Below, one piece after another: positions 166 to 32,560 of a stretch of DNA of 45,074 nucleotides. The translations under genes and the position numbers were made by a program. The notes under the pieces are model-generated. The model was not told the origin of the DNA, did not search any database, and saw only the letters and a program-made list of their open reading frames with translations. The stretch is from a phage: assembly GCA_028473545.1 (NCBI GenBank), contig GCA_028473545.1_4546.1, one strand, 5' to 3'. Within the stretch, counting starts at the first letter, position 1. Each line of letters opens with the position of its first letter.

Positions 166-495
166 ATGAATATCAAAGAAGCAATTGAAGTGTTATCTAA
201 TGCAATCCGCGGCGAAGCGGGTAAATCCTGGTATTACACAAATGCGGTGGATACTCTGTTATTTGAAGTGTCCAGATTATCGCGTGCTGAGAAGGAGCTT
301 ACCGCGAAGCTGGAATTGCTCAACGGCACGGCAGCAAGCAAGCTGCAAAAACACAATGAAGAAATGGAAGAATACAAAAAGCAGGTTATCCGTTTGCGCG
401 ACGAGGGCAAGTCCTGGGCGATGATTGCCGAGTTGACCGGAATTAATCAGAGCACCGTGCGCTCCTGGGTACGCAATAATAAAACTTCTAAGTAA
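166..495 (+). CDS. Small DNA-binding protein with C-terminal helix-turn-helix (putative early transcriptional regulator)
   Basis: 109-aa ORF with RBS caggag before the ATG; C-terminal GKSWAMIAELTGINQSTVRSWV resembles an HTH; first gene downstream of the rightward early promoter. Confidence 0.55.
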   Translation: MNIKEAIEVLSNAIRGEAGKSWYYTNAVDTLLFEVSRLSRAEKELTAKLELLNGTAASKLQKHNEEMEEYKKQVIRLRDEGKSWAMIAELTGINQSTVRSWVRNNKTSK

Positions 496-505
496 GGCAA
501 CGGCA

Positions 506-2770
506 ATGAGCTTAATTAAATTCGCAGTAACAAGACCCGCTAAAAAAGGCGAAAAAGCCAGGGCGGAAAACTTCGAGATGACCACTGATGAATTTTTCGA
601 ATTTATCAATGATGCGAAAGAAATCTCGTCGGTGCATATCAACAAGACAGAAGATAAAGCCGAGTATGCGCGCCGCAAGCGTAAGGCAGATGGTATCGTG
701 GCCTACACCAATGATGGATTACGCCGCAAGACCAGTGCGGTCGACCGCTCGATCCTGTTCTTTGATATCGACCGTACTGACACCCGCACTTTACGCCGCT
801 GCCGTAGGGCGTTCACCGACGCTGGCCTGGAGCACGTATTTCACACCACCACCGGCGACCGTCACCCACTGAAAGGCGGCACACGTTGCGCCCGTTTCCT
901 GGTGCTCACTGACAAGCCTGTACCGGCGGAAGACCTGGGCCGCGTCCAGTATGCGTTATTAAACCAACTGGGCCTGTCAGATGTGGACTTCGACGATTGT
1001 ACGAAAGACACCAACCGCCTTATGTACCTGCCTCACCAGCAGTCAGTCATTAAGTGCCACTACGGCAAGCGCGCCCGTGTCCGTCGTCTGCTTCGCCTGG
1101 CTGACAAGCTGGGAGTGGAGAAAGAGGAAGTACGCCGCGAACTGACCCAGGGCGACGATGGCGTGGCGGACGGGATTCTGGATTGGTGCTTCCAGGCTGG
1201 CTTTGAACCGCTGTCATCCGGTCGCGGTTATGAAGTGCCGTGCCCGAACGAGCACCTGCATAGCGGCGGCGGGTCGACGGCTATCATGGTTAAGGATGGC
1301 GAGATCCGTTTTAAATGTATGCACACCGGCAACGAGTGTTGCTCCGAACTGAACAAACACCAGCACCTGGCGTTACGTCTGATCGGTATCCCGGACCACT
1401 TGAACGTTGAACCGCACAACATGTCACGCAAGCAAATCGCCGCCATCCTTCCGGGACTGGACGACGAGGAAGTGGAATCATGCTATGAACATATTGTTGA
1501 TGCGGTCGGCGACGGCGACGAGTACGGCGAATGCACCGACGCTGACCTGGACAACGAACCTGTTGCACTATTCAGTAAGCACGACCCGATCATCGAAGGC
1601 CTGGTCAACTTCAAATCGACCTGGTATCTTGCCGGTGAATCGAACATCGGTAAGTCGTTCTATGTGCTGGGCCAGATGGCGTCCGTATCCGCCGGTATTC
1701 CGTTTGGTGGCGCGAAGGTCGTCCAGTGCCATAACTTCTATTTCGATGCGGAAGGTGGCGAAGCCTCCAACCAGCGTAAGGAAGCATTGCAGATTAAATA
1801 CGAGCACGACCTCGACAAGCTGCACATTGTCGACCTGCAATCACGCGGCTGGGATATTACCAGCAAGTCAGGCTTGCGTGAGGTTATCAGCTTTATCAAC
1901 CGCACCGCTAACGGGGAACCGGTTGGCCTGGTGGCATTCGACTCACTCAACCAGACTGTCGCGCTGCGATCCGCTGATGCCAAACCGTTCGACGAGAACA
2001 ACGCCAGCGATATGGGCGAAGTGGTCAAGGCGCTGAAGGCCATTGCGGAAAATACAGGTGGCAGTGCGGGCGTCATCCATCACCCGGCTAAGGGCGCAAA
2101 CGGCAGCAGATCGCCACGCGGGTCCGGCGCGCTTCATGGTGCTGTTGATTCTGCGTTCTTCCTGGAACAGCCGGATGACAACCAGCCAGGCCAACTCAAC
2201 CTGTATCACGAAAAATCCCGTAACGGGATTAAGCAAGCGCCGCGTGGCTTCGTCCTGCTCAAATGCAAGGTGAAGGTGGATCTCCGTAAGTCCGAGGCGT
2301 TCGAAGCCCACCAGTCCACCAGCACCGGTCCGGACTTCGGCGATGTGGTTGCCGGTTGGGACGTCAAGCCAATTGCATCCACGCCACGCGACGAGACTCT
2401 CTACCTCGTACCGGTCGCCCTGGCACCGTTCGCTGTCGAACAGGCTAAGGCCGCAGGCAAGGCCGCAGTTAAGGAAGAGAACACCGCCGGACCGCGCAAC
2501 GAAAAAGAGAAGGTGCTTTATGCGGCACTGGAAAAACTGATGGAAGATAACCCGGACCATACTGGATTCAGTAAATCGGCAATTGTCCGCCAGGCTGGAC
2601 TCGCGAAAGGCGGAACATCGACGAAGGCAATCGACGATATGGTGGAGCGCGGCGTGCTCGGGTTTTATACAGATCCACACACTGGGGCCATCTACGGGTC
2701 GTCGAATCTGGTCATCAAATCGGATATACCCATCACGCTTTCAGCGACCGATGACGACCTGAAAGATTAA
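506..2770 (+). CDS. Putative bifunctional DNA primase/helicase (primase-like N-terminus plus RecA/DnaB-like ATPase)
   Basis: 754-aa ORF; N-terminal acidic motif FFDIDR and Cys/His cluster CPNEHLHSGGG...CMHTGNEC; Walker-A-like GESNIGKS in the centre. Product inferred from motifs only. Confidence 0.6.
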   Translation: MSLIKFAVTRPAKKGEKARAENFEMTTDEFFEFINDAKEISSVHINKTEDKAEYARRKRKADGIVAYTNDGLRRKTSAVDRSILFFDIDRTDTRTLRRCRRAFTDAGLEHVFHTTTGDRHPLKGGTRCARFLVLTDKPVPAEDLGRVQYALLNQLGLSDVDFDDCTKDTNRLMYLPHQQSVIKCHYGKRARVRRLLRLADKLGVEKEEVRRELTQGDDGVADGILDWCFQAGFEPLSSGRGYEVPCPNEHLHSGGGSTAIMVKDGEIRFKCMHTGNECCSELNKHQHLALRLIGIPDHLNVEPHNMSRKQIAAILPGLDDEEVESCYEHIVDAVGDGDEYGECTDADLDNEPVALFSKHDPIIEGLVNFKSTWYLAGESNIGKSFYVLGQMASVSAGIPFGGAKVVQCHNFYFDAEGGEASNQRKEALQIKYEHDLDKLHIVDLQSRGWDITSKSGLREVISFINRTANGEPVGLVAFDSLNQTVALRSADAKPFDENNASDMGEVVKALKAIAENTGGSAGVIHHPAKGANGSRSPRGSGALHGAVDSAFFLEQPDDNQPGQLNLYHEKSRNGIKQAPRGFVLLKCKVKVDLRKSEAFEAHQSTSTGPDFGDVVAGWDVKPIASTPRDETLYLVPVALAPFAVEQAKAAGKAAVKEENTAGPRNEKEKVLYAALEKLMEDNPDHTGFSKSAIVRQAGLAKGGTSTKAIDDMVERGVLGFYTDPHTGAIYGSSNLVIKSDIPITLSATDDDLKD

Positions 2771-2852
2771 ATTTTGCGCGCATTGGTTGCCATTTTGAGT
2801 GTTTTTAGCTGGTCGCATTGGTTGCCGTGTAGTGTAAATATAGTGAATAGTT

Positions 2853-3058
2853 ATGCAGTTTTATTGCATAAAGTAAGCGGGACAAAAAGCGGGACAGACA
2901 GGGGCGGGACAAAGCGGGACAGCACCCCTGTCCCGCCCCGGATGGCGCGGCTTGCGGGGGAGCGGGACAGGCGGGACAAACCCCAGTCTTTCAGACTAGA
3001 CGGGGGTCAGTTGGCCCCCCTCGTCTGAGACTGCATAAAATCCGGGATTGCATAATGT
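2853..3058. repeat. Iteron module A: GCGGGACA octamer array, GC-rich hairpin and paired TGCATAA boxes
   Basis: Direct GCGGGACA copies at about 2877, 2889, 2904, 2914, 2962, 2971 and an inverted TGTCCCGC at about 2929; imperfect hairpin 2981-3033 (agacggggg..cccccctcgtct); TGCATAA pairs at 2853-2873 and 3036-3056. Noncoding. About 170 bp is near-identical to 20700-20870. Confidence 0.7.
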
Positions 3059-3185
3059 ACGGCAGCATGATGTGAATTGCTGTCGTCGACGAACTAGGCA
3101 ACCAATGCGTGTTGCAAAATGGAGAGTGAAAAATGCAGTTTGCAGTTACAGCGGATAGGGATCGGCTTTTTCATACGCGTGATTA

Positions 3186-3232: not shown

Positions 3233-3249
3233 AACAAGAGGATTGAACA

Positions 3250-3576: not shown

Positions 3577-3585
3577 GGGGCTAAA

Positions 3586-8112: not shown

Positions 8113-8141
8113 CCAGCCCGCCGATTTGGTGGGCTTTTTTG
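8113..8141 (+). terminator. Rho-independent-type terminator
   Basis: agcccgcc..ggtgggct stem (one G-U pair) followed by tttttt. Confidence 0.4.
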
Positions 8142-8144
8142 TGC

Positions 8145-8154
8145 CTGTTATAAT
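8145..8154 (+). promoter_or_regulatory. Extended -10 promoter element upstream of the terminase genes
   Basis: TGtTATAAT at about 8145-8154; weak -35 (TTGGTG). Confidence 0.3.
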
Positions 8155-8224
8155 CCCCCTTAGATGGCTGGGCCGTCTCCTATGTTGCCGATGGTCGGCG
8201 CATATGCATAAAAGGGCTTATATC

Positions 8225-10171: not shown

Positions 10172-11692
10172 ATGACCGTTAACGTTGACAACCAGCACCC
10201 ACTCTATGCGCGCATCGCGCAGGAGTGGAAAATGATCCGGGATTGCGTAGCGGGGGAGCGCGCCGTGAAGGCGCGCGGCCCCTTGTACCTGCCACATCCC
10301 GCCAGTGGCGATAATACCGACCCGAAAGCACGGGCGCGATATAAGGCATATAAGCAACGCGCTGTATTCCTGAACGCCACCGCACGCACGCTTAATGCGC
10401 TGTTAGGCGTCGCCTTCGCTAAGCCGGTAAGTCTGGACCTTTCCGGGGCGATGGCTGACCTGATTGATGACGTAGACGGCAGCGGAATGCCACTGCCGCA
10501 ACTCCTGCGCGGTGCTATGTCGGAAGTGCTGCAATCGGGCCGCGCGGGCTTTATGGTGGACTACGACCGCCAGGCTAACTTTGATGAACTGGGTAACGTA
10601 GTGCCGCAGACCGCCGCCGAGATGGCGACGCACCGCCCGCTTATCCGCCTGTATACGGCAGAACAGATCATCAACTGGCGGCAGACCCACGGGATTGACA
10701 CGCTAATCGTGCTGAAGGAAACGGACGAAATCAGCACCGAAGACCCGGACGACTTTGCAAACCACGAAGTAACGATCTGGACTGAATTGCGCATGATTAA
10801 CGGCGCAGCACACGCCCGCCGCTGGTTTTACAACGCAGACACGTCCGAGGTGCAGATGGATTTGCCGCGTGGCTTCACCCGCACCGAGCTTGTGCCGCTG
10901 GTGGATGCTGCCGGTCGAGCGCTTACTCAACTGCCATTTTGCTGGTGCGGTGCGGTGGACAACAACGCAACGCCTGACGCCGCGCCGCTGGCGGATATTG
11001 CATCCATCAACATTAAGCACTACAACGCTGAGGCGGACGTTGCCGAGATCGCGCACATCGTGGGTCAGCCTACCCTTGTCGCCACGGGCTTGACTCAATC
11101 ATGGGCCGACAAAAACCTGAAGGGTGGGATTGCTCTCGGCGCGACTAAGGGCGTTATCCTGGGCCAGAACATGGACGCTAAACTGATTCAGGCCGAGGAG
11201 CGCAACTTGTCTGTTGCACTTTGTGAGCGCCGCGAATTGCAGATGGCTAAACTGGGCGCGGCCCTGGTTGAGAAGGGGACTGCACCAAAGACGGCAACTG
11301 AAGCGGCATACGATGCGCAGACTGACAATAGTATCCTGTCGCTCATTGCCGGTAACGTTGAGAAGGCTTTCAACCGTGCGCTGCAAATCGTCCAGCTATT
11401 CACGGGTGATACCGCGGACCAGCGCGTGACGCTGAACAAGTTCTACACCGAAATCACGGTTGACGCGCAGCTTATGACCGCAATGATGGCTGGTGTTCAG
11501 ACCGGTACGGTCCGACTGGCTGACTTCATCAAGTGGATGATGGCGCAGGGCGTTATCGATGACTCGCAAACCGTAGAGCAGGTGGAAGACGAATTGCGAA
11601 ATCAGAATCCATTGCCTCAAATGTCCCCTGATGCGGTAGAATCTACCGAAGAAGACCCGGATAAGGTAGCGGACAATGGCGAGAACAATTAA
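10172..11692 (+). CDS. Portal protein
   Basis: 506-aa ORF directly after the large terminase with aaggaaac RBS; size and position typical; acidic C-terminus. Confidence 0.7.
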   Translation: MTVNVDNQHPLYARIAQEWKMIRDCVAGERAVKARGPLYLPHPASGDNTDPKARARYKAYKQRAVFLNATARTLNALLGVAFAKPVSLDLSGAMADLIDDVDGSGMPLPQLLRGAMSEVLQSGRAGFMVDYDRQANFDELGNVVPQTAAEMATHRPLIRLYTAEQIINWRQTHGIDTLIVLKETDEISTEDPDDFANHEVTIWTELRMINGAAHARRWFYNADTSEVQMDLPRGFTRTELVPLVDAAGRALTQLPFCWCGAVDNNATPDAAPLADIASINIKHYNAEADVAEIAHIVGQPTLVATGLTQSWADKNLKGGIALGATKGVILGQNMDAKLIQAEERNLSVALCERRELQMAKLGAALVEKGTAPKTATEAAYDAQTDNSILSLIAGNVEKAFNRALQIVQLFTGDTADQRVTLNKFYTEITVDAQLMTAMMAGVQTGTVRLADFIKWMMAQGVIDDSQTVEQVEDELRNQNPLPQMSPDAVESTEEDPDKVADNGENN

Positions 11693-17038: not shown

Positions 17039-17539
17039 ATGTATGGCGACCCGCAAACCTTTACTGATTATGCCGCTGCGCGAGGCGTTGAGATTACGCT
17101 GGGCTATGCAACGCGACACCTTACCATCGTTAATGACTTCCTTAACGGCATCAACTGGATCGGCGAACAAGCGGACCAGACCGGAATCGACGCATGGCCC
17201 CGCATCAACTACCCGTCAGACGGTAAGCCGGTGCGAGACACGCTCACTGGAGTTGTGGCGGTAGTGCCTGCCGGGCAAATCGTAGACTTCGCATCAATTC
17301 CCGTTGCCGTTGAACAAGCCGTTTACCGGTTGGCGATGCTGGTGGCGGACGATATTGATATTTCTCCGATCGGCGGTGGCAAAGAGACTATTCGCGAAAC
17401 GGTTGGCCCGATCACGATGGAATATGACCCCGCGACGATTGGCGGATATGTGGCGTTCCCGTGGTGGGATGGCTTGCTGGGCTACTGGGTGAACGTAGAC
17501 GGCAACGCTTCAGGTAACTTTGACGTATACAGGGGCTAA
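17039..17539 (+). CDS. Head-tail connector/adaptor protein (putative)
   Basis: Start at MYGDPQ with aggag RBS; 166 aa; position between capsid and tail genes. Confidence 0.4.
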   Translation: MYGDPQTFTDYAAARGVEITLGYATRHLTIVNDFLNGINWIGEQADQTGIDAWPRINYPSDGKPVRDTLTGVVAVVPAGQIVDFASIPVAVEQAVYRLAMLVADDIDISPIGGGKETIRETVGPITMEYDPATIGGYVAFPWWDGLLGYWVNVDGNASGNFDVYRG

Positions 17540-19071: not shown

Positions 19072-19797
19072 ATGGGTTATCAACTTCCTAACGGGTCCAG
19101 CGTCCAGATTGGGTCCGTATTAGGCGCAGGCATCGCGGTTACGGCAGCTACCAACGCCACCGCGTCAATCTCCGACCTTACCACTGGTTGCGTTATTACC
19201 TGCGCGGAAGGCCACGGCCTGGCAGTAGGCGACGTGGTTATGTTCACTAAAACCCCGTGGGTCCGTGCGCTGAACCGCGCGTTCATCGTGGGTAAAGTGG
19301 CGACTAACGACGTGACGCTGGCGCGCTTCGACACCGAAGACGTCACCAAATATCCCACCGGCGCTTTTGGCGTAGGCACTCCGGGTGAAGTGGTGAAGGT
19401 GTCGAGCTTTATCGACTTCCCGTTTATCACTAACGTTGCCGTTTCTGGTGGCGACCAGCAGACGACTACCTTCCAGCCGTTGCAGGTTAACACCGCGATC
19501 AGTCTGAACACCACGAAAAACCCGTTGGTCCAGACTTACACCTTCACTCACGACGAAGAAGACCCGATCCGCCCTATCCTGGAAGACCTGGACGATACAC
19601 AGAAAACCACTGTTATTAAGTTCACGAACCCAGCGGCAGCAAGCGGAAAAGGTGAAATTCGTATTTACCCGGCTAAGGTATCTTTCCAGAAGATTCCGTC
19701 CGCTGAAGTAAACAACGTGGAAACGGTACAATCCACTCTGACCATGCAGTCTGATATGGTTATCTACCGTAAGGATCTGGTCGAGGCATTGTCTTGA
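19072..19797 (+). CDS. Major tail protein (putative)
   Basis: 241 aa; caggag RBS; followed by a strong terminator and the chaperone/tape-measure genes. Confidence 0.55.
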   Translation: MGYQLPNGSSVQIGSVLGAGIAVTAATNATASISDLTTGCVITCAEGHGLAVGDVVMFTKTPWVRALNRAFIVGKVATNDVTLARFDTEDVTKYPTGAFGVGTPGEVVKVSSFIDFPFITNVAVSGGDQQTTTFQPLQVNTAISLNTTKNPLVQTYTFTHDEEDPIRPILEDLDDTQKTTVIKFTNPAAASGKGEIRIYPAKVSFQKIPSAEVNNVETVQSTLTMQSDMVIYRKDLVEALS

Positions 19798-19825
19798 TTT
19801 GGTCGCTTAAATAGCGAGTGTTAAT

Positions 19826-19850
19826 ATGGGGCCTGCACGGCCCCTTTTTT
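19826..19850 (+). terminator. Rho-independent terminator after the major tail gene
   Basis: ggggcc..ggcccc stem followed by tttttt. Confidence 0.5.
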
Positions 19851-19866
19851 ATTGGAGAATATTACA

Positions 19867-20229
19867 ATGGCTAAAGCACCACTCTTCACACTTGACCCTA
19901 AGCCGACCTTTAAGCTGCCGATTGAGATCCCGCGCCCTGGTGAGAACGAACCAGGCAAGATGACGTTTACCGTCCGCCACCGCCCGATCGACGAGTTTTC
20001 GCAGACCATGCAGGACACCGAACGCAAGCTATCGGAATATGACGACAATGACCCTGACGGCTTTAACGTTATGGTTGAGGCCATCATGCACGTCGCTGAA
20101 GGCTGGAATCTGCCAGACCAATTTAACGCTGAGAACGTCCGCCGTCTGGTAGTCAACTACCCCCGTGCGTTCGGCGTGTTCCACACCTCGTACTACCTCG
20201 AATTGATGGGACTACGTGAAAAAAACTAA
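19867..20229 (+). CDS. Tail assembly chaperone (lambda gpG-like)
   Basis: ATG at 19867 with ggag RBS; 120 aa; ends at a slippery A_AAA_AAC site; lies upstream of the tape measure. Confidence 0.55.
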   Translation: MAKAPLFTLDPKPTFKLPIEIPRPGENEPGKMTFTVRHRPIDEFSQTMQDTERKLSEYDDNDPDGFNVMVEAIMHVAEGWNLPDQFNAENVRRLVVNYPRAFGVFHTSYYLELMGLREKN

Positions 20230-20543
20230 TTGAGGCGGCGCGACGCTTTTATGGCCCGCCGCCACCCTCCGAAGATGTAGCCGCAAGTTTATGGGGCGCG
20301 GCCCCCGAAGATGTTTGCCCGTCTGTTGCGCTATGGCCCGACAACGCGAAGATAGTCGCAGTCTTCACAGATTGCTCTACGCAATGGCGCACCGGATTCG
20401 GTGGGGCATACGGCATCGACTACGGAGTTCTGGAGTGGCTATTTAAGATGCACGGCATCGAAAACGAGCAACGTGCATTTAAAGATATAAAGCTAATGGA
20501 ACGGATCGCGCTTGACGAAATGGCGCAACAAAACCCCGCATAA
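20220..20543 (+). other. Putative -1 programmed frameshift extension (gpGT-like fusion)
   Basis: Slippery heptamer A_AAA_AAC at 20220-20226 in the last codons of the chaperone; the -1 frame is open for about 106 codons to TAA at 20541-20543 with no early ATG. Confidence 0.45.
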
Positions 20544-20544
20544 T

Positions 20545-20942
20545 GAAGCGGGACAAGCGGGACGTCCCGATCTGTCCCGTTTTGCCCCGCCCCCGGTAAA
20601 ACTGCATATCTACTCACTTTCATTGCATAAACTCAAAGCGGGACAAGCGGGACGTCCCGATCTGTCCCGCCCCCTAAATATGCATACCTATTCAGATTTC
20701 GTGCATAAAACAAACGGGACAAAAAGCGGGACAAACAAGGGGCGGGACAAAGCGGGACAGCACCCCGTCCCCGTCAGTGCTGCCGCGGGTTTCAGCCGAT
20801 CGGGACAGGCGGGACAACTCCCAGTCTTTCAGACTAGACGGGGGTCAATGGCCCCCCTCGTCTGAGACTGAATAAGGTTTGTTTGAAATTCGCTGATACA
20901 ATGTCAATCGGCAACTGCATAAAAAAAGGGGACTGCATAATG
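20545..20942. repeat. Iteron module B: GCGGGACA array with GGGACGTCCC palindromes, GC-rich hairpin and paired TGCATAA boxes
   Basis: Two 35-bp direct repeats (20546-20580, 20637-20671); GCGGGACA copies at about 20714-20759 and 20801-20816; hairpin 20819-20870; TGCATA(A) pairs at about 20602/20624, 20680/20703 and 20916/20934, the last overlapping the tape-measure ATG. Confidence 0.7.
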
Positions 20943-23585
20943 GCAGATCAAGCAGCAGGCATCACGCTAAAGGCGGATGTTGCACAAATCAGAACGGCGA
21001 ATACGGTGCTGGACTCATTCGCGCAGAAGTCCGAAAACACCGAAAACAAGGTCAAGAAATTAAACGACACCCTCGGCAACTCAAAAAAGGTGACGAGTGA
21101 CGCCGCGGGCGGAATGGGGAAGCTGGCAACTGAATCGCAGCGGGCCGCCGATGGCATGACGAAGCAGGAGCGACTTGCCAACCGCTTAGGCATGTCGACC
21201 AAAAACCTGGGCTTCGCATCGCGTAACGCCGCATTTCAGTTACAAGATATCGCGGTCACGCTCGAGATGGGTATGCCGGTGCACCGCGTCATGATTCAGC
21301 AGCTACCGCAGTTAACCGGGGCATTCGGTGGACTGGGTAACACGCTGCGTTATGTTGCTGGCTTTCTCGGTCCGGTAGGGATCGGCCTTGCTGCGGTAAC
21401 GGCAACGCTAGGCGTAGGCGTGGCTATTACGTCCCGCGCAGAAAACCAGGTAGCGGCGCTGAATAAGACGCTGGCGCTATCTGGTAACATCTCGGGCCTC
21501 ACCGCTAACCAGATCCTGGTGCTGTCGGAGAACGCCGAACGAATGGGCGGTTCATTCAGCAAGACGCGTGACACAATTCAGGCGCTGGCGGCGGCAGGTG
21601 TGAAAGCGGGTGCTGACTTCGGCGCGCTGGCGAAAGTAGTGAACGACTTCGCGAAGGTGTCTAATCAGCCGATCGCCGACGTGGTGGAGTCCATCTCCAA
21701 ATTGTCCAACGACCCGGTGGGCGGCTTGCGCGCACTGGCGGACAAGTATCACGTCGTTACCGAGGCGCAGATCCAGCAGGTGCAGTCACTGGTTACGACG
21801 GGTCGCGAAACCGAAGCGGTGGCGCTGGCGAACAAAACAGCCGCGGCGTCGTTCACCAGCATGACCAACGAGATCAAGTCCAACATGGGTACGCTTGAGC
21901 GGTCGATGAACGTCGTCACATCGGCAGCTAAATCTATGTGGGATGCCATCCTGGATGTGGGCCGCGCGCAGTCATCGAATGAGTCCGAGATGAAAGCGCG
22001 TGAGTCATTGCAGCGCATGACCACGGCTTACTATGCTGAGATGAAAGCGGTAAACGCTGCCGGTGGGGTAATGACCGACGCGCAGAAAGCACGTATTAAC
22101 ATGCTTTATAGCGAACTGGTCGCACAGGAAAAAGTAGTAGCGTCGCTCACCCTGCGTAACCGTGCCGAGCGCGACAACGCCAGCGCTGCGGACAAATCAG
22201 CGAAGGCGAACGAGGAGGCCAACCGCACCGCCCGTGACCGCGCCGCGTTCGAGAAGGAATTTGCCACCAACGCGAAGAAGCGCGCCGACGAGATCGCCCG
22301 CCTCAATTTACTGAATAAGCGCGGTGTGATTAACGAGAAAGAACTAGCCGAGGCGGTGAAGCAGGTCAACGAGCGCTACAAAGACCCCGCACCGAAAAAG
22401 GCGGCGGCAATTCGCGTCGATGCCGGTGTTAAAATGCTGGAGGTCGCGCGGAGCGAACTGGCACAGCTTAAGGAGTCCGGCAAGCAGATCGAAGCCAATG
22501 CCACAACGCAGACCCGCACGCAGCGCGCACAGGCCGCGTTGAATAAGCTGGTCGCGGATAATGAGCAAATGGTCGCAGCAAGCAAGGAACGCACACTAAC
22601 GGCAGCAGAAAAGCAGCAAATGGCAGAGTTCGAGGCGGTTAAAGCGGTACGCGAGCAGATCGTCGAAGAAGCCAAATTGCTGGACGCGAAAGAGAAGCAG
22701 ATCAAGGCACACGCCCAGGTCGAGGCATTCATCAAGAACCAGAACGCCGAGCTACGGGCCACCGCTGCGGGCTATGCGCTTTCCACTCGCGAAGCGGCTA
22801 ACCTGCGCGAAGAATTACAGCTAATTGACCGCCTTCAGCGTGTCGGCGCTAACGATACTGATATTGACCGGGCGGTGTCTAAGCTGCGCGAAGTGCAGGA
22901 AGCACAGACCGGTGCTAACGCTTCGTTGTGGGATGGCTTTAGCCGCGGGCTTAAGGATAGCGTGGATGAAATGGGGAACGGCTACACGCAGATGACGTCA
23001 CTCACAAAATTCACGTTCGGCGCTATGCAGGACACGATGAATACGTTTTTCGAGACGGGCAAGCTGAACGCAAAGGATATGGTTAAGTCCATCCTGAGCG
23101 AATTAATCAAGCTGGCTACCTCGCAGGCGTTCAAATCCATCGTTAGCGCTTTCGGCGGTGACGGCGGCAAAAACGGATTGTTCGGCGCTATCTTCTCGGG
23201 CCTCACTAAGAACGCAGACGGCGGAGCGTACGCAGGAGGCAATCTCGCGGCCTATTCTGGTCAAGTGGTAAGCCAGCCCACCTTTTTCAGTTATGGCGTT
23301 CAGGCGTTCGCTAAGGGCGCTGGGTTGATGGGTGAGGCTGGACCCGAGGCTATCATGCCACTGAAGCGCGGGCCGGATGGGAAACTGGGCGTTGCCGCTG
23401 CCGGTGCTGGTGGGGGTGGGATGATTGTAACAACCAACGTGAACATGGGTACCGGTAAGACGGACACCAGTGTGAGCGGACCGGACCCACGCACCGCGCA
23501 GGCGTTCGGAAAGCAAATCACCGAGTCGGTCAAGGCCGAGATCGTGAAAGCGACGAAACCGGGTGGAGTACTTTACAAACGATGA
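20940..23585 (+). CDS. Tape measure protein
   Basis: Start at MADQAAG with aagggga RBS; 881 aa; long helical protein; Gly-rich C-terminal region; position before the M/L/K/I/J-like genes. Confidence 0.8.
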   Translation: MADQAAGITLKADVAQIRTANTVLDSFAQKSENTENKVKKLNDTLGNSKKVTSDAAGGMGKLATESQRAADGMTKQERLANRLGMSTKNLGFASRNAAFQLQDIAVTLEMGMPVHRVMIQQLPQLTGAFGGLGNTLRYVAGFLGPVGIGLAAVTATLGVGVAITSRAENQVAALNKTLALSGNISGLTANQILVLSENAERMGGSFSKTRDTIQALAAAGVKAGADFGALAKVVNDFAKVSNQPIADVVESISKLSNDPVGGLRALADKYHVVTEAQIQQVQSLVTTGRETEAVALANKTAAASFTSMTNEIKSNMGTLERSMNVVTSAAKSMWDAILDVGRAQSSNESEMKARESLQRMTTAYYAEMKAVNAAGGVMTDAQKARINMLYSELVAQEKVVASLTLRNRAERDNASAADKSAKANEEANRTARDRAAFEKEFATNAKKRADEIARLNLLNKRGVINEKELAEAVKQVNERYKDPAPKKAAAIRVDAGVKMLEVARSELAQLKESGKQIEANATTQTRTQRAQAALNKLVADNEQMVAASKERTLTAAEKQQMAEFEAVKAVREQIVEEAKLLDAKEKQIKAHAQVEAFIKNQNAELRATAAGYALSTREAANLREELQLIDRLQRVGANDTDIDRAVSKLREVQEAQTGANASLWDGFSRGLKDSVDEMGNGYTQMTSLTKFTFGAMQDTMNTFFETGKLNAKDMVKSILSELIKLATSQAFKSIVSAFGGDGGKNGLFGAIFSGLTKNADGGAYAGGNLAAYSGQVVSQPTFFSYGVQAFAKGAGLMGEAGPEAIMPLKRGPDGKLGVAAAGAGGGGMIVTTNVNMGTGKTDTSVSGPDPRTAQAFGKQITESVKAEIVKATKPGGVLYKR

Positions 23586-25749: not shown

Positions 25750-26357
25750 CCACATTTAAATTGTACGGCGTCTTAGGACGTCGTTTTGGTAAAGTGCATA
25801 AGCTGGAATGTTTCACACCTGGCGAGGGTATCACCGGCCTATGCGTGAAGTTACCAGGCTTACAGGACTTTCTAATGTCGGCCCACCTGGGAAACATGAT
25901 GTTTAAGGTGCGCAAGGGTAATCACACAATGACCGGCTACGACGAGTTAGGGGAGTTCCACGGCGACCGCGTAGTTACCATCGCGCCGGTTATGACGGGT
26001 GCTAAAAGCGGACTGGGCCAATTGCTGGCTGGCGTAGCTATCGTGGTGGCGTCGTTCTACACCGGCGGGCTTGCCGCTGCCGCTTTCGGTGCTTCCGCGG
26101 CGACCGCTGCCGCTATCGGAACGGCGACGTTTTCGTTCGGTATGTCGCTTGCGCTTGGCGGTGCTATGCAACTGCTGTCACCGCAACCGAAAGGATTGCA
26201 GACACGGCAGGACGTGGATAACAAGGCGTCGTATGCGTTCGGCGGGCCGGTAAACACTACCGCGCAAGGTACAGCACTTGGTGTATTATGGGGCGAGCGT
26301 GAGATCGGCGGCGCTATTATTTCAGCCGGAATTGTAACCGAGGATTTGAACGAATGA
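25740..26357 (+). CDS. Tail assembly protein (lambda gpI-like)
   Basis: 205 aa; Gly/Ala-rich hydrophobic segment; position between the K-like and J-like genes. Confidence 0.6.
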   Translation: MAMTTFKLYGVLGRRFGKVHKLECFTPGEGITGLCVKLPGLQDFLMSAHLGNMMFKVRKGNHTMTGYDELGEFHGDRVVTIAPVMTGAKSGLGQLLAGVAIVVASFYTGGLAAAAFGASAATAAAIGTATFSFGMSLALGGAMQLLSPQPKGLQTRQDVDNKASYAFGGPVNTTAQGTALGVLWGEREIGGAIISAGIVTEDLNE

Positions 26358-29300
26358 CGATTGTATACGACGTCACGGGTCATAAAGGCGGCGGTGGCAA
26401 ACAGCACACCCCACAGGAGACGCCTGATAGCCTGCATTCGCTGGCTAAAATCCGCATCTTGCTCGCACTGGGCGAGGGCGAATTTGAAGGCATTCCCGAC
26501 CCTAACGAATTACGGCAGCGTGTATACCTGGACGGCACACCGATCCAGAACGCCGACCTGTCGGATAACTTCCCCGGCGCGCGTGTGGAGTTCCGCCCCG
26601 GCACGCAGCACCAGGATGTGATTCACGGTTTTTCAGCGGTGGAAAGCGAGCAAACAGTAGGCGTAAAACTGGAACAGGGCCAGCCGTGGGTCCGCCAGAT
26701 TTCGGATACCAGTCTGGATGCGGTGCGCATTCGAATCGGTATTCCGGCCCTGTACACCAACGAAGATAATGGCGACCTGGTGGGCGGGCGCATCGACTAT
26801 AAAATTGTTGTGTATACAGACAATGCTGATCCGCGGGAGTTTACATTCGCTGCCGTTGGTAAAACAATGTCGCTGTATGAGCGCGATCACCGCATCGAAT
26901 TACCGCCGAACGTGAATACCGGCTGGCGCGTGGAGGTGCACCGCACAACGGCAGACTCCACATCGGCAAAAGTGGTCAACGATATTCAGGTACAATCCAT
27001 TACTGAGATTATCGACGCCCGCCTGCGATACCCGCTAACCGCGCTGTTGTTCGTGGAGTTCGATGCTAAGGCGTTCCAGAACATCCCGCGTGTGTCCATC
27101 AAGTGCAAAGGCCGCAAAGTGCTGGTGCCGAACAACTACGACCCGATTAATCATACCTATTCTGGTGACTGGGACGGCACATTTAAACGCGCCTGGACGG
27201 ATAACCCTGCGTGGCACTGGTACGATATTTGTATTACTGAGCGCTTCGGCCTCGGTCGTCGTGTCAAGCCACAAATGCTAAACCGTTACGCACTCTACCA
27301 GATTTCGCAGCGCTGCGATCAGATGGTCAGTGACGGCAACGGCGGTCAGGAAATCCGATTTAAGAATGATATGTACATTCAGTCGCAGACCGACGCCTGG
27401 ACCGTGCTGAAGGATTTAGCGGCTATCTTTGCGGGCATGACCTGGTGGGGCAACCAGATGTTGAATATCGTCAGTGACCAGCCTGTCGCAGCGGTATCGC
27501 ATACTATCACCAACGCCTCGGTCATTGATGGTCGATTCGACTACGCATCGGGAAGCCAGAAAACTCGGTATTCCACGTTCTCGGTAGCCTACGGCAACCC
27601 GAAGAACCACTATGATGACGCCATCGCAACGGGTCAACGTGTCGAACTGGTGCGCCGCCATAAGATTAACCGCCTTGATATCACGGCGATCGGCTGTACG
27701 CGAGAATCTGAAGCGCAACGCCGCGGGCACTGGGCGCTAATCTCCAACCAGCTTGACCAGCAAGTCAGCTTTAAGGTTGGCATGGAGGGGTTATTCTTTA
27801 TTCCGGGGAGCGTAGTCGCGATCGCAGATACTAACATTTCTGGCGGCTTCGAGACACGCGGCGGACGCCTGTTGTCAGATCCAGGCACGCGCACCGTGCT
27901 GAACACGGACAGCGAAATCACGTTCCGCCCTGGTGATAAATTCCTGGTGCGCACCGATAGCGGTAATGTGGAGACTCGCGAGATTGCCAGCGTCAACGGC
28001 AACCAGGTCACGCTAAAAACCGCACTGGACTCCGACCCGATTCCCGATCAGCCGTTTTGCGTTGATGGCGATGATATCCAGTTGCAGAAGTTCCGCATCA
28101 CAGACCTGGAATATGACGACGCTACCAGCACTTTTTCGGTGCGCGGGATTGAGTACAACGATAGCAAATATGATGCCGTTGATAATGGCGCGCGTCTTGA
28201 TCCGGGTATCTTCACTCAAGTGCCGGACGGCGTGATGAAGGGGCCAGAATCCGTTACTATCACCCCGTCGCAGATTTCATCGCAAGGCCAGCTAATCACC
28301 AACGTAGATATTGTTTTTCCGCCGGTGAAGGATGCCGTTGTGTACGAAATCCAGTGGCGACGTACCAGCTTGCAGAATCTGGAAGTACAGTGGGGCAACG
28401 ACTGGGTTAACATCCCCCGCACGGCGTCGAACGGCGCGCACATCCCGAACGTGTTTTCTGGTAACTACCAGGCACGCGTCCGCGCTATCGGTATGGGCGA
28501 GATTTCATCCCCGTGGGTGTCATCCGAAATCACGCCGGTCGAGGGCCGTCTTGGCGGGCTAAACGCGCCAATCATTACCAACGCGATTTCGGGCCTTCAT
28601 CAAATTTTGTGGAAGTGGAATCACAACAACGCCGCGACGGATATTTCGTATACCGAGCTTGAAGTGCGCAAGCTGGGTGAGACTGAATGGAAATTCTTGA
28701 CCAACGTCCCATATCCGGGGTCGGACTATGCGCAAACGTCGCTGGAATTCGGGATCTACCAGCAGTTGCGCGCACGCGTAGCGGATAAAATCGGCAACCT
28801 GTCGGACTGGTCAGACCCGTTTGACGGTCAGGTGAGTGACAAAGTTGACGAGTACATGCAGGGGCTTGATGACGAGTTCTTGACTTCCGAGGACGGTAAA
28901 CACTTCCAGGAAGCAATCGACACCATTCCACAAGGCATTTACGAGGCCATGCTCACCGACGCGCAGCAGTTGTTTAACGCCCGCTCCGAGTATCAAGGGA
29001 TTTATGCGGAAATCAAGGTGGCGTACAACGTTGCGGTGGACGCAAACGAGGCCGTAGCGCAACTGGAAACGCTGATCGGCACGCGCCTTGACGATGCGGA
29101 AGCGTCAATCCACACGTTGCAGACTGCGCAAAGCACGCACGAACAAGCGTTCGCCCAGTATCAACAAACTGTTGCCGCTAAGTTCGGTCAGCAGTCCGCA
29201 GCGATCGAGCAGAAGATGACGTCTTCGTTTAACCATGCTGGCGGTAGCGCCACCTACAGCCTTAAAGCTGGCGTGACGTATAACGGGACTTACTATGATG

Positions 29301-29704
29301 CCGGTATGCAGCTTTCCGTTGTGGCGGAAGGTGGCGCGGTTAAATCTCGCATCGCGTTCAAGGCGGACCAGTTCTACATCATGCACCCGTCGAATGGGTC
29401 GCTTTCGTCCGCGTTTATCGTCGACGGCGGTCAGGTGTACATTGACACGGCGCGCATCAAGAATGCGTCCATCAACTTCGCACAGATCACGGACACGCTG
29501 CAATCCAATAACTGGAATCCGGGTAACAGCGGCTGGCGAATCGCGAAGGATGGCGGGGCGGAGTTCAACAACGTAACGGTACGCGGCAACTTGTTCGCGA
29601 CTACGGGTAATTTCGGATTCTCCGGCGGGTCCGTTACGATCGACGCAACGGGCGTCAACGTGCCATTACCTGGAGGGGGAAGGGTTAAAGTCGGGACGTG
29701 GTAA
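26354..29704 (+). CDS. Tail tip / central fiber protein (lambda gpJ-like)
   Basis: 1116 aa; ATGA overlap with the I-like gene; size and position. Confidence 0.8.
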   Translation: MTIVYDVTGHKGGGGKQHTPQETPDSLHSLAKIRILLALGEGEFEGIPDPNELRQRVYLDGTPIQNADLSDNFPGARVEFRPGTQHQDVIHGFSAVESEQTVGVKLEQGQPWVRQISDTSLDAVRIRIGIPALYTNEDNGDLVGGRIDYKIVVYTDNADPREFTFAAVGKTMSLYERDHRIELPPNVNTGWRVEVHRTTADSTSAKVVNDIQVQSITEIIDARLRYPLTALLFVEFDAKAFQNIPRVSIKCKGRKVLVPNNYDPINHTYSGDWDGTFKRAWTDNPAWHWYDICITERFGLGRRVKPQMLNRYALYQISQRCDQMVSDGNGGQEIRFKNDMYIQSQTDAWTVLKDLAAIFAGMTWWGNQMLNIVSDQPVAAVSHTITNASVIDGRFDYASGSQKTRYSTFSVAYGNPKNHYDDAIATGQRVELVRRHKINRLDITAIGCTRESEAQRRGHWALISNQLDQQVSFKVGMEGLFFIPGSVVAIADTNISGGFETRGGRLLSDPGTRTVLNTDSEITFRPGDKFLVRTDSGNVETREIASVNGNQVTLKTALDSDPIPDQPFCVDGDDIQLQKFRITDLEYDDATSTFSVRGIEYNDSKYDAVDNGARLDPGIFTQVPDGVMKGPESVTITPSQISSQGQLITNVDIVFPPVKDAVVYEIQWRRTSLQNLEVQWGNDWVNIPRTASNGAHIPNVFSGNYQARVRAIGMGEISSPWVSSEITPVEGRLGGLNAPIITNAISGLHQILWKWNHNNAATDISYTELEVRKLGETEWKFLTNVPYPGSDYAQTSLEFGIYQQLRARVADKIGNLSDWSDPFDGQVSDKVDEYMQGLDDEFLTSEDGKHFQEAIDTIPQGIYEAMLTDAQQLFNARSEYQGIYAEIKVAYNVAVDANEAVAQLETLIGTRLDDAEASIHTLQTAQSTHEQAFAQYQQTVAAKFGQQSAAIEQKMTSSFNHAGGSATYSLKAGVTYNGTYYDAGMQLSVVAEGGAVKSRIAFKADQFYIMHPSNGSLSSAFIVDGGQVYIDTARIKNASINFAQITDTLQSNNWNPGNSGWRIAKDGGAEFNNVTVRGNLFATTGNFGFSGGSVTIDATGVNVPLPGGGRVKVGTW

Positions 29705-29708
29705 ATGA

Positions 29709-29735
29709 GAAGGGGCCATCCGGCCCCTTTTTTAA
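29709..29735. terminator. Bidirectional rho-independent terminator
   Basis: ggggcc-atcc-ggcccc hairpin flanked by tttttt (plus) and T-rich sequence on the minus side; at a convergent gene junction; near-identical copy at 32533-32560. Confidence 0.5.
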
Positions 29736-32529: not shown

Positions 32530-32532
32530 TGA

Positions 32533-32560
32533 GAAGGGGCCATACGGCCCCTTTTTTAGT
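32533..32560. terminator. Bidirectional rho-independent terminator
   Basis: gagaaggggccatacggccccttttttag; near-identical to the terminator at 29709-29735. Confidence 0.5.

What the first reader, a model, noticed from the sequence alone, without database searches (positions are those of the whole stretch)
20545..20942. Iteron module B: second copy of the GCGGGACA/hairpin/TGCATAA module, between the tail chaperone and tape measure
This module shares about 170 bp of near-identity with module A (including the agtctttcagactagacgggggtca..ggcccccctcgtctgagactg hairpin) but is expanded. It has two extra 35-bp direct repeats (20546-20580, 20637-20671), each containing the perfect palindrome GGGACGTCCC, and three TGCATA pairs. 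The last TGCATAA overlaps the tape-measure ATG. A large noncoding, protein-binding-like array inside a tail operon is unexpected. The two copies could be paired sites for one DNA-binding protein (looping, replication or packaging control, late transcription activation) or recombination substrates.
Basis: seen in the sequence. Interest (0 to 1): 0.7.

Follow-up and report, generated by a model that had tools for sequence, protein, structure and literature searches.

The report
Second replication-origin-like iteron array
The 400-bp non-coding repeat block in front of the tape-measure gene of this HK578-like coliphage is real and is most likely a second copy of the phage's replication-origin-type binding site for its own primase-helicase, a known design placed in an unusual spot.

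Summary
The window is a Dhillonvirus genome. Module B (20545-20942) lies between the tail chaperone T-ORF and the tape-measure ATG. It is co-linear with, and 82% identical to, module A (2826-3062), which follows the stop codon of the helicase-primase gene.

Comparison with relatives gives the explanation. Every relative (helicase-primase 43-97% identical) has the same layout 3' of that gene: AT-rich element, direct and inverted octamers, GC-rich spacer, more octamers, long hairpin. The octamer differs by lineage (GCGGGACA, ACTCGCAA, GGGGGAGA, CGGACAA, TTCCGACA). The octamer class tracks only the last ~100 residues of the helicase-primase, even where the rest is 96-99% identical. That C-terminus is predicted as a winged helix, and the N-terminus as an AEP primase (RepB'-like fold). 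The helicase core is RepA-like (AAA_25).

The modules are therefore iteron origins of the SaPI Rep / P4 alpha / RSF1010 type. Module B is a second copy, like SPP1 oriR or P4 crr. It is kept in all 15 IMG/VR relatives aligned. A Klebsiella-phage lineage carries a second copy at a different late-operon site.

No binding or replication was tested. GenBank record GQ502199 already flags both repeat regions. Verdict: new member of a known kind, moderate interest.

The parts
166..495 (+). Small HTH protein (109 aa) at the head of the operon with the helicase-primase. Probably a regulator, not the octamer binder.
   Evidence: Pfam HTH_23 / Sigma70_r4_2. In relatives L034 and L035 the upstream Cro-like HTH is identical although the octamers differ.
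506..2770 (+). Helicase-primase (754 aa): AEP primase, Cys/His cluster, AAA_25 RepA-like helicase and a C-terminal winged helix. Proposed initiator that binds the octamers.
2501..2716 (+). Coding region of the predicted winged-helix domain (residues ~666-737). Proposed octamer-specificity determinant.
2826..3062 (+). Module A. AT-rich island with TGAATAGTTATGCA (2844-2857); 4 direct octamers (2877-2921); 1 inverted octamer (2929-2936); GC-rich spacer; 2 direct octamers (2962-2978); hairpin (2984-3033); TGCATAA pair (3032-3055).
20229..20543 (+). T-part of the tail assembly chaperone (DUF1799), with stop TAA at 20541-20543. Upstream boundary of module B.
   Evidence: Annotated as gp16 in SO-1.
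20546..20580 (.). Octamer cluster 1: GCGGGACA, then the palindrome CGGGACGTCCCG, then inverted TGTCCCG. First copy of the 34-nt exact repeat.
   Evidence: Folds as an ssDNA hairpin, z = -3.7.
20596..20635 (.). AT-rich island 1 (about 33% GC) carrying the TGCATA...TGCATAA pair at 20603-20630. Candidate unwinding element flanked by octamer clusters.
20636..20670 (.). Octamer cluster 2, the second copy of the 34-nt repeat.
20675..20714 (.). AT-rich island 2 (33-37% GC). TGCATACCTATTCA (20681-20694) is the inverted form of the TGAATAG(G/T)TATGCA element conserved in all lineages. TGCATAA at 20702-20708.
20715..20760 (+). Four direct octamers (CGGGACA starts at 20715, 20727, 20743, 20753; spacing 12, 16, 10). 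All four hexamers are conserved in 14 of 15 relatives; L045 has CGGGGC at one.
20761..20800 (.). GC-rich spacer (70% GC) with a degenerate inverted octamer (CCCCGTCCCCG).
20801..20817 (+). Two closely packed direct octamers (CGGGACA starts at 20801 and 20810). Both hexamers are present in all 15 relatives; in 4 of them (L036, L038, L041, L043) a 1-nt shorter spacer shifts the second copy.
20822..20870 (.). Long imperfect hairpin CAGTCTTTCAGACTAGACGGGGG-loop-CCCCCCTCGTCTGAGACTG. Stems are nearly invariant (one substitution, in L049) and the loop varies among relatives. No U/T tract follows. Candidate single-strand initiation (primase) site or cruciform.
   Evidence: Equivalent hairpins with different sequence occur in the other lineages.
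20871..20915 (+). B-specific AT-rich insert with TGATACAAT (20894-20902), which reads as an extended -10 by eye. Possible promoter for the tape-measure gene.
   Evidence: Absent from module A. Invariant in 15 of 15 relatives. The sigma-70 scan, which requires a -35, found nothing. The promoter reading is inference.
20916..20942 (+). TGCATAA pair (20916-20922 and 20934-20940), a Shine-Dalgarno-like AAGGGGA, and the tape-measure ATG (20940-20942).
20940..23585 (+). Tape measure protein gene. Downstream boundary of module B.
   Evidence: Pfam TMP_2 and Tape_meas_lam_C.

Best explanation
Module B is a second copy of the phage's iteron-type replication-origin module. The proposed mechanism has these steps.

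1. The phage helicase-primase is one polypeptide with an AEP primase, a Cys/His cluster, a RepA-like AAA_25 helicase and a C-terminal winged helix.
2. The winged helix recognises the GCGGGACA octamers (inferred).
3. The protein assembles on the arrays that flank the AT-rich TGCATA/TGAATA islands and opens them (inferred).
4. The adjacent hairpin, once extruded or single-stranded, serves as a structured entry or priming site for the primase domain, by analogy with the RSF1010 ssi sites (inferred).

Module A, directly 3' of the helicase-primase gene, is the ancestral position. Module B, 17.8 kb away, gives the same protein a second assembly site. It could be a true second origin, or a distant auxiliary or fork-arrest site like P4 crr or SPP1 oriR.

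Shown here: the anatomy, its conservation, the lineage-specific octamers, their co-variation with the protein's C-terminus, and the predicted folds. Inferred: binding, melting, priming, and which of the second-site roles applies.
For: 1. Position and architecture are conserved while the repeat changes. In every relative examined (helicase-primase 43-97% identical; Dhillonvirus, Klebsiella phage 37P2, Salmonella phage PhiSTP2, phiEap-2-like and IMG/VR loci) the gene is followed by the same layout: AT-rich element, 3-4 direct octamers, 1-2 inverted, GC-rich spacer, 2-3 direct, long hairpin. The octamer is GCGGGACA, ACTCGCAA, GGGGGAGA, CGGACAA or TTCCGACA depending on lineage.
2. The octamer class follows the protein's C-terminus, not the rest of it. 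L031 vs L029: residues 1-640 are 99% identical, the C-terminal part 48%, and the octamers differ. L031 vs L035: 80% and 67%, same octamer. L026 vs L034: 96% and 46%, different octamers. L026 vs L028-L030: 82% and 64-65%, same octamer.
3. This is more than linkage. In L034 vs L026, DNA homology is lost 270 nt before the stop codon, returns at 92% over the AT-rich element, is lost again over the octamers and hairpin, then returns. Two separate blocks changed together.
4. The upstream HTH protein is identical in L034 and L035 although their octamers differ, so it is not the octamer reader in those lineages.
7. Module B carries the same octamer as A with the same core spacing. Its two upstream AT-rich islands are flanked by octamer clusters on both sides.
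8. Module B is present in all 15 IMG/VR relatives aligned. The core octamers and hairpin stems are nearly invariant (single departures in L045 and L049), the hairpin loop is variable, and indels break any reading frame.
9. The 37P2 lineage carries a second copy with its own octamer at a different late-operon site. Second copies therefore arose or moved independently and were kept.
10. A DNA-pattern scan found 11 unrelated viral contigs in which CGGGAC arrays abut the 3' end of an AAA_25 helicase ORF.
11. Published precedents exist. SaPI Rep uses a C-terminal winged helix to read 5-6-nt iterons immediately downstream of rep, around an AT-rich centre (PMC9371898). P4 alpha, RSF1010 and pRN1 are described in PMC4234260. 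SPP1 oriL/oriR is described in PMC6316719.
Against: No binding, melting or replication was tested; everything is comparative or predicted.

- The winged-helix coding region and the octamers are physically adjacent. Co-inheritance by recombination can mimic functional coupling, and only point 3 above argues against this.
- GC skew follows transcription direction and shows no origin signal.
- The helicases next to CGGGAC arrays in unrelated contigs have C-termini with no detectable sequence similarity to this one.
- The conserved TGAATAGTTATGCA element and the ACGGCAGCA motif are unexplained.
- The module lies in the sense orientation inside a transcription unit and is followed by a conserved -10-like element, so a transcriptional role, alone or in addition, is possible.
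- PhiSTP2-like, phiEap-2-like and Cornellvirus-like relatives manage with one module. A second copy is therefore not essential to this replication system.
Confidence: 0.6

Rival explanations
1. Transcription-control module of the late operon. The hairpin or a protein-octamer complex stops or attenuates transcription coming from the major tail and chaperone genes. The octamers or TGCATA pairs bind a phage activator, and the conserved TGATACAAT restarts transcription for the tape-measure and distal tail genes, setting their lower dosage.
For: - Both modules, and the second copy in 37P2, lie at gene-cluster boundaries in the sense orientation.
- An invariant extended -10-like TGATACAAT lies 38 nt before the tape-measure ATG, in a B-specific insert.
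- The hairpin stems are conserved.
- The TGCATA pairs have about 22-bp spacing.
Against: - No U/T tract follows the hairpin, and the terminator scan does not call it. A canonical terminator already follows the major tail gene at 19828-19844.
- No sigma-70 promoter passes the scan.
- The octamer class tracks the helicase-primase C-terminus, not a transcription factor, and the neighbouring HTH is identical across different octamer classes.
- The same architecture sits 3' of helicase genes in many phages.
Confidence: 0.15
2. Structured RNA element within the late mRNA, for example a processing or stability site, or a small RNA. On this reading the repeats and hairpin act at the RNA level.
For: - The module is presumably transcribed as part of the tail operon.
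- The hairpin stems are nearly invariant with a variable loop.
- Module A folds better than shuffles as RNA, z = -2.7.
Against: - No Rfam family reaches its gathering score. The permissive scan gives only sub-threshold miRNA-like hairpin matches.
- Module B folded as RNA has z = -1.7 only.
- The hairpin folds equally well on both strands as DNA.
- The AT-rich 14-mer occurs in either orientation in different genomes, which fits a duplex-DNA site better than an RNA motif.
- The octamers co-vary with a DNA-binding-type domain.
Confidence: 0.08
3. Packaging or recombination site. The arrays are recognition sites for terminase (pac-like), or substrates for recombination between the two direct copies.
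For: - Arrays of short repeats are typical of terminase small-subunit sites (own knowledge).
- The two modules are direct repeats that could recombine.
Against: - The modules lie 5.3 kb before and 11.8 kb after the terminase small-subunit gene (8126-8776).
- The octamers track the helicase-primase C-terminus.
- Recombination between direct copies would delete 17.8 kb containing the essential head genes.
- Relatives differ in copy number and in the position of the second copy without any accompanying change having been looked for in terminase (not tested).
Confidence: 0.05
4. Functionless duplication. Module B is a neutral or selfish copy of module A that happened to land before the tape-measure gene.
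For: - B is co-linear with A and ends exactly at TGCATAATG, which looks like a copy-paste junction.
- Some relatives have only one module.
Against: - B is retained in at least 146 of 159 matching phage records and in all 15 IMG/VR relatives aligned. The octamers and stems are nearly invariant while spacers and the loop vary.
- B has been elaborated with two extra octamer/AT units.
- A second copy exists independently at another site in the 37P2 lineage.
Confidence: 0.07

Closest known systems
SaPI Rep / ori (self-loading initiator-helicases of staphylococcal pathogenicity islands; PMC9371898)
   Same: - Short iterons lie immediately downstream of the helicase ORF.
- An AT-rich region has iterons on both sides, some in opposite orientation.
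- Specificity resides in a C-terminal winged-helix domain.
- The primase is fused in some members (PriRep5).
- Specificity differs between closely related elements.
   Different: - SaPI Rep is an SF3/MCM-like AAA+ helicase. This one is a RecA-type AAA_25 (RepA-like) helicase with an AEP primase.
- This module has in addition a long conserved hairpin.
- This phage carries a second full copy 17.8 kb away.
Bacteriophage P4 alpha protein with ori and crr (as summarised in PMC4234260 and PMC2777425; the crr details are from my own knowledge)
   Same: - One polypeptide combines primase, helicase and a C-terminal winged helix that binds octamer-type repeats.
- Two separated repeat loci are served by the same protein (ori and crr, own knowledge).
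   Different: - The P4 primase is DnaG/TOPRIM-type and its helicase is SF3.
- No sequence similarity was detected.
- Whether module B is required in cis like crr is unknown.
RSF1010 (IncQ) oriV with RepA, RepB' and RepC (PMC4234260)
   Same: - Iterons, a GC-rich then AT-rich segment, and stem-loops that the AEP-type primase RepB' recognises for priming.
- The helicase is of the same Pfam family (AAA_25).
   Different: - The three functions are fused in one protein here.
- The iterons are 8 bp, not ~20 bp.
- Only one hairpin per module is seen, not an ssiA/ssiB pair on opposite strands.
SPP1 oriL / oriR (PMC6316719)
   Same: - A virulent siphophage with two similar initiator-binding repeat plus AT-rich regions.
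- One lies at the initiator gene. The other lies in an intergenic segment that interrupts the late structural genes.
- The second copy in the 37P2 lineage sits directly after a gene annotated 'capsid protein' that follows the portal gene.
   Different: - The SPP1 initiator gp38 is a separate origin-binding protein working with a loader and a DnaB-type helicase.
- The repeats and proteins are unrelated.
- In Dhillonvirus the second copy splits the chaperone and tape-measure genes.
pRN1 ORF904 and its downstream stem-loop origin (PMC4234260)
   Same: - A small repressor gene plus an AEP primase-helicase-winged-helix gene, followed by an essential, relocatable stem-loop just 3' of the gene.
   Different: - pRN1 has no iterons and an SF3 helicase.
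- It is an archaeal plasmid.

Membership tests
Iteron origin served by a self-loading initiator-helicase (SaPI Rep/ori, P4 alpha/ori type) | Multiple short iterons immediately 3' of the initiator-helicase gene | tested here: met
   Module A starts within about 60 nt of the stop codon. The same holds in all relatives. Module B itself is 17.8 kb away and meets this only as a copy of A.
Iteron origin served by a self-loading initiator-helicase (SaPI Rep/ori, P4 alpha/ori type) | AT-rich region flanked by iterons, some in opposite orientation | tested here: met
   In module B the AT islands at 20596-20635 and 20675-20714 (33-37% GC) lie between octamer clusters containing direct and inverted copies. 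In module A, octamers lie only on the 3' side of the AT island.
Iteron origin served by a self-loading initiator-helicase (SaPI Rep/ori, P4 alpha/ori type) | C-terminal winged-helix domain that sets iteron specificity | tested here: met
Iteron origin served by a self-loading initiator-helicase (SaPI Rep/ori, P4 alpha/ori type) | SF3 (D5/P4-type) helicase core | tested here: not met
   The core is Pfam AAA_25, the RSF1010 RepA family. No PDB sequence match to P4 alpha or SaPI Rep was found. It works like these systems but is not a member of that protein family.
Iteron origin served by a self-loading initiator-helicase (SaPI Rep/ori, P4 alpha/ori type) | Specific protein-iteron binding and origin activity in vivo or in vitro | not testable with these tools
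   Needs EMSA or ChIP, marker-frequency analysis, and plasmid replication assays.
IncQ / RSF1010-type oriV | RepA-type helicase and RepB'-type AEP primase | tested here: met
IncQ / RSF1010-type oriV | About 20-bp iterons bound by a separate RepC, and paired ssiA/ssiB hairpins on opposite strands | tested here: not met
   The repeats are 8-mers. The DNA-binding domain is fused to the helicase. Only one long hairpin per module is seen.
Two-origin arrangement of SPP1 (oriL/oriR) | Two similar initiator-binding repeat plus AT-rich regions, one at the initiator gene and one intergenic within the late genes | tested here: met
   Modules A and B. Described for SPP1 in PMC6316719. This is an arrangement only; no protein homology was tested or claimed.
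Intrinsic (Rho-independent) terminator | GC-rich stem-loop followed directly by a U/T tract | tested here: not met
   The hairpin at 20822-20870 is followed by AATAAGG, and in module A by CATAAAAT. The scan does not call it on the + strand.
Sigma-70 promoter | -35 and -10 hexamers with 16-18 nt spacing | tested here: not met
   The scan finds 0 sites in 19500-21500 and 0 in 2000-4000. Only an extended -10-like TGATACAAT is seen by eye at 20894-20902.
Any Rfam RNA family | Covariance-model score at or above the gathering threshold | tested here: not met
   0 hits in the whole window. Only sub-threshold miRNA-like matches appear in a permissive scan of module B.

The most novel reading that the evidence does not exclude
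Module B is not simply a spare origin. It could be a replication-coupled checkpoint built into the tail operon. The helicase-primase bound at 14 octamer sites between the chaperone and tape-measure genes would act as a roadblock or fork-arrest site, as proposed for gp38 at SPP1 oriR. That site would trigger the switch from theta to concatemer-producing replication. At the same time it would gate transcription into the tape-measure and distal tail genes, which restart from the conserved TGATACAAT element. Replication state would then directly set the timing or dosage of late tail genes.
Probability: 0.15. Interest if true: 0.65.

Novelty: new member of a known kind. Interest (0 to 1): 0.42.

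Why it matters
- It gives a concrete, testable origin assignment for Dhillonvirus (HK578-like) and related Guernseyvirinae-like phages. These phages are common in E. coli and Salmonella collections, and I found no paper in the searched library that maps an origin for them. HK578 escape mutants of the OLD defence map to this helicase-primase and its promoter (bioRxiv 10.64898/2026.07.10.737580).
- It identifies a natural set of at least five exchangeable winged-helix/octamer specificity pairs on an otherwise near-identical primase-helicase. That is a ready-made system for studying how initiator specificity evolves and for building orthogonal replicons.
- It explains why many annotations place spurious 'hypothetical proteins' over a 400-bp gap between the tail chaperone and tape-measure genes.
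- It warns phage engineers that this gap is probably not dispensable spacer.

Tried and rejected
- GC-skew profile to locate an origin. The skew simply follows gene orientation, so it is uninformative.
- Rfam at gathering and at permissive thresholds. Nothing meaningful was found. There are no tRNA or tmRNA genes.
- RNAalifold on hairpins from ten modules. MAFFT misaligned the 3' arms and only the short 5' stem was recovered, with 3 compensatory pairs. I relied on per-sequence folds instead.
- Protein search with the C-terminal 165 residues alone found one fragment only. The full-length search was needed.
- PDB sequence searches with the protein and with a profile gave only a weak RepA hit and a spurious BurrH hit.
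- The upstream HTH as the octamer binder. Rejected for the Guernseyvirinae-like lineages because identical HTH proteins go with different octamers. Not excluded for the unrelated 109-aa HTH of Dhillonvirus, although the octamer/C-terminus pattern makes it unnecessary.
- Looking for a named phage matching the TTCCGACA-type locus L031, in order to compare terminases. No megablast hit, so the packaging rival was not tested this way.
- Literature searches for Dhillonvirus, HK578 or SO-1 together with repeat, iteron or origin terms found no description of these modules.
- Host-factor readings of the conserved TGAATAGTTATGCA element (it resembles an ArgR box and is a poor DnaA box) rest on recalled consensus sequences only. 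They are not put forward as findings.
Full report
**1. What the window is**

The window matches Escherichia phage vB_EcoS-101114BS4 at 99.8% over 1.8 kb. It also matches 159 phage records, mostly named Escherichia phages, including five Dhillonvirus-named records, five Shigella phages and Sodalis phage SO-1. It is an HK578-like siphophage genome of the genus Dhillonvirus.

Genes from 166 to about 29.7 kb run on the + strand. In order they are: a small HTH gene, the helicase-primase, small ORFs, lysis genes, terminase, head genes and tail genes. The DNA polymerase and other replication genes run on the - strand.

**2.

- GCGGGACA occurs 16 times against 2.15 expected, and 14 of these lie in two places.
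- Module B fills the gap between the stop codon of the chaperone T-ORF (DUF1799, 20229-20543) and the tape-measure ATG at 20940.
- B contains a 34-nt exact repeat (20546-20579 and 20636-20669), each with the palindrome CGGGACGTCCCG.
- It has three TGCATA...TGCATAA pairs, the only ones in the window, against 0.03 expected.
- It has six further direct octamers in a 4 + 2 arrangement.
- It has a long imperfect hairpin at 20822-20870 that folds far better than shuffles on either strand, z about -4.
- From the second AT-rich island to TGCATAATG, B is co-linear with module A (2826-3062) at 82% identity. B carries a 48-column insert before the last TGCATAA pair.
- Module A starts just after the helicase-primase stop codon at 2770.
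- The block is non-coding. Fifteen relatives differ by 1-nt and 11-12-nt indels.
- The GenBank record of Sodalis phage SO-1 (GQ502199, 2009) already marks both places as repeat regions 'A' and 'B' with 'direct, inverted and palindromic repeat sequences'.
- I found no paper in the searched library that describes these modules.

**3. Distant relatives show a conserved architecture with a changing repeat**

A tblastn search with the helicase-primase found relatives at 43-49% identity, including Klebsiella phage 37P2 and Salmonella phage PhiSTP2. A scan of IMG/VR gave 30 loci spanning 43-97% identity. In all of them the 250-300 bp after the stop codon has the same order of elements:

1. One or two copies of a conserved AT-rich 14-mer, TGAATAGTTATGCA.
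2. Three or four direct copies of a short repeat, about 10-16 bp apart.
3. One or two inverted copies.
4. A GC-rich spacer.
5. Two or three tightly packed direct copies.
6. A long hairpin whose sequence differs by lineage but whose stem is kept.
7. A TTATTCA/TGCATAA element.
8. The motif ACGGCAGCA.

The repeat itself differs by lineage:

| Lineage | Repeat |
|---|---|
| Dhillonvirus (including members with 68-86% identical proteins) | GCGGGACA |
| 37P2-like | ACTCGCAA |
| PhiSTP2 / FSL SP-031-like | GGGGGAGA |
| phiEap-2-like and two other loci | (G)CGGACAA |
| Two loci (L031, L035) | TTCCGACA |

A conserved layout with a lineage-specific short repeat is the signature of a site read by a co-evolving protein.

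**4. Which protein reads the repeat**

The neighbouring small HTH protein is not conserved across lineages.

The helicase-primase shows the opposite pattern. Over residues 1-640 the proteins fall into groups that ignore repeat class: L034, L025, L026 and L027 are 96-98% identical to each other, and L028-L031 are 98-99% identical. Over the last ~100 residues they regroup exactly by repeat class:

| Pair | Residues 1-640 | C-terminal part | Repeat |
|---|---|---|---|
| L031 vs L029/L030 | 99% | 48% | different |
| L031 vs L035 | 80% | 67% | same |
| L026 vs L034 | 96% | 46% | different |
| L026 vs L028-L030 | 82% | 64-65% | same |

At the DNA level, homology between L034 and L026 stops 270 nt before the stop codon. 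It resumes at 92% across the conserved AT-rich element, disappears again across the repeats and hairpin, and then resumes. Two separate blocks have therefore changed together, which simple linkage of one swapped segment does not explain.

**5. What the protein is**

- Pfam sees only AAA_25, the family of the RSF1010 RepA helicase, at residues 357-531.
- An invariant Cys/His cluster follows, from C246 to H285 with nearly invariant H287.

The protein thus joins in one chain the three activities that RSF1010 splits among RepB' (primase), RepA (helicase) and RepC (iteron binder). P4 alpha, SaPI PriRep5 and pRN1 ORF904 combine the same three activities using different primase and helicase folds (PMC4234260, PMC2777425, PMC9371898).

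**6. Mechanism proposed**

*Shown:* the anatomy, its conservation, the co-variation, and the predicted folds.

*Inferred:*
- The winged helix binds the octamers.
- The protein assembles on arrays that flank AT-rich islands and melts them.
- The hairpin, once single-stranded or extruded, offers a structured entry or priming site. RepB' primes 3' of the ssi stem-loops of RSF1010, and the stem-loop 3' of orf904 is the essential, relocatable origin element of pRN1 (PMC4234260).

By that standard module B looks like a more complete origin than module A. Its two upstream AT-rich islands (33-37% GC) each lie between octamer clusters that include inverted copies. In module A the octamers lie only on the 3' side of the AT island.

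**7. Why a second copy**

- Module B is kept in at least 146 of 159 matching phage records and in all 15 IMG/VR relatives aligned. In that alignment the core octamers and both hairpin stems are nearly invariant (single substitutions in L045 and L049; a 1-nt shorter spacer before the last octamer in four relatives). The loop, the spacers and the distal units vary.
- The 37P2 lineage has its own second copy with its own octamer. It sits directly after the gene annotated 'capsid protein' that follows the portal gene, and before the gene annotated 'spanin'.
- SPP1 oriR is also an intergenic segment that interrupts the late structural genes and is accompanied by moron genes (PMC6316719).
- PhiSTP2-, phiEap-2- and Cornellvirus-type phages have a single module.

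Second copies were therefore acquired at least twice, at different late-operon sites, and retained. Three roles are possible:
- a true second origin;
- a distant cis-enhancer like P4 crr (own knowledge);
- a tight-binding site that stalls forks and triggers the theta-to-sigma switch, as proposed for gp38 at SPP1 oriR (PMC6316719).

I cannot separate these.

**8. Independent support and its limits**

A pattern scan of IMG/VR for two adjacent CGGGACA units returned 120 stretches. Forty-eight of them have at least five hexamers within 300 nt. In eleven non-Dhillonvirus loci the array abuts the 3' end of an AAA_25 helicase ORF, in one case next to a DnaG-type primase gene. This shows that 'RepA-like helicase gene followed by a short-repeat array' is a widespread arrangement. 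However, those proteins' C-termini have no detectable sequence similarity to this one, so it says nothing about the winged helix itself.

**9. Rivals**

- *Transcription control.* This is the most serious rival. The modules lie in the sense orientation at cluster boundaries, and B has an invariant extended -10-like TGATACAAT 38 nt before the tape-measure ATG. Against it, the hairpin lacks a U-tract, the scans call neither a terminator nor a promoter there, and the repeat tracks the helicase-primase. A dual role is plausible and is my 'novel case'.
- *RNA element.* Weakly supported (z = -1.7 for B, no Rfam family). The 14-mer also occurs in either orientation in different genomes.
- *Packaging or recombination.* No positive evidence.
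- *Functionless duplication.* Contradicted by the conservation pattern.

**10. Verdict**

The kind of element is known (iteron origin of a self-loading primase-helicase, with a second copy as in SPP1 or P4). This particular protein architecture (AEP primase, RepA-like helicase, winged helix) and the placement between chaperone and tape-measure genes were not described in anything I could find. I rate it as a new member of a known kind, of moderate interest, with a set of exchangeable specificity cassettes that is directly testable.

Noticed in passing
window 2783, 2818, 3098(-), 3189, 3220, 6402(-), 6425(-), 14952(-), 14966(-), 33821(-), 33833, 35493(-), 35510(-), 42267, 42283, 45042 and others: A second, unrelated motif TTGGTTGC occurs 20 times against 1.9 expected. 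Most copies are in pairs 14-35 bp apart in intergenic regions, and several form palindromes (TTGGTTGCACACCAA; GCAACCAA-CCTA-TTGGTTGC). It looks like an operator/promoter motif for a phage regulator, possibly the 109-aa HTH protein. Guernseyvirinae-like relatives have GTTGGCTG in the same places.
   Followed up: partly
window 2844-2857, 20681-20694 (inverted); L005 ~17150-17195; loci L026-L035: The AT-rich 14-mer TGAATAG(T/G)TATGCA is an imperfect palindrome of TG(A/C)ATA half-sites. It is conserved in all lineages regardless of octamer class and occurs in either orientation in different Dhillonvirus genomes. Its reader, a host factor or a conserved part of the helicase-primase, is unknown. It resembles an ArgR box from memory only.
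   Followed up: partly
window 3059-3068; 20909-20915; L004 ~10905 and ~1590; L005 ~16975: A short motif ACGGCAGCA (CGGCAAC in module B) follows every module in every lineage, just after the TGCATAA/TTATTCA element. In module A it falls within a mini-ORF, ATGTACGGCAGCATGATGTGA. Its function is unknown.
   Followed up: no
L004 (Klebsiella phage 37P2) 1572-1856 versus 10890-11208: This more distant phage also has two copies of its own module (octamer ACTCGCAA; 99 nt at 77% identity). The second copy lies directly after the gene annotated 'capsid protein' that follows the portal gene. SPP1 oriR likewise interrupts the late structural genes.
   Followed up: yes
L053 1116-1460; L110 4412-4624; also L052, L075, L107, L116, L117, L150, L159, L163, L165: Unrelated IMG/VR contigs carry dense CGGGAC(A) arrays (up to 13 hexamers in 300 nt) abutting the 3' end of AAA_25 helicase ORFs. 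Those ORFs have C-termini that share a W(R/K)E.F...KKAF.RA motif and are not similar to the window's winged helix. This is possibly another initiator family using a similar repeat.
   Followed up: partly
window 29668-29734 and 32492-32558: The same terminator-like hairpin (GAGAAGGGGCCATCCGGCCCCTTTTTTA; 67 nt at 73% identity) closes both the central tail fibre gene (26354-29704) and the gene at 31003-32529. It suggests a duplicated 3' end or terminator cassette.
   Followed up: no
window 19828-19844: A canonical intrinsic terminator (GGGGCC-TGCAC-GGCCCC followed by a T-run) sits directly after the major tail protein gene, upstream of the chaperone genes. Dosage control of the tail operon therefore already has a conventional element 700 bp before module B.
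   Followed up: no
window 41451-41630 and 44635-44867 (- strand genes): Tandem 54-nt and ~81-87-nt repeats lie within coding sequence on the - strand and encode alternating acidic/basic low-complexity stretches. 37P2 has a similar D/E-rich repeat at L004 17396-17576.
   Followed up: no
records MZ234016, MZ234008, PQ850604 and others under window 20545-20942: Several deposited relatives list several 'hypothetical protein' CDSs under the 1.8-kb query that spans module B. Any that fall within the module are probably spurious, because relatives there differ by frame-breaking indels. The CDS coordinates were not checked.
   Followed up: partly
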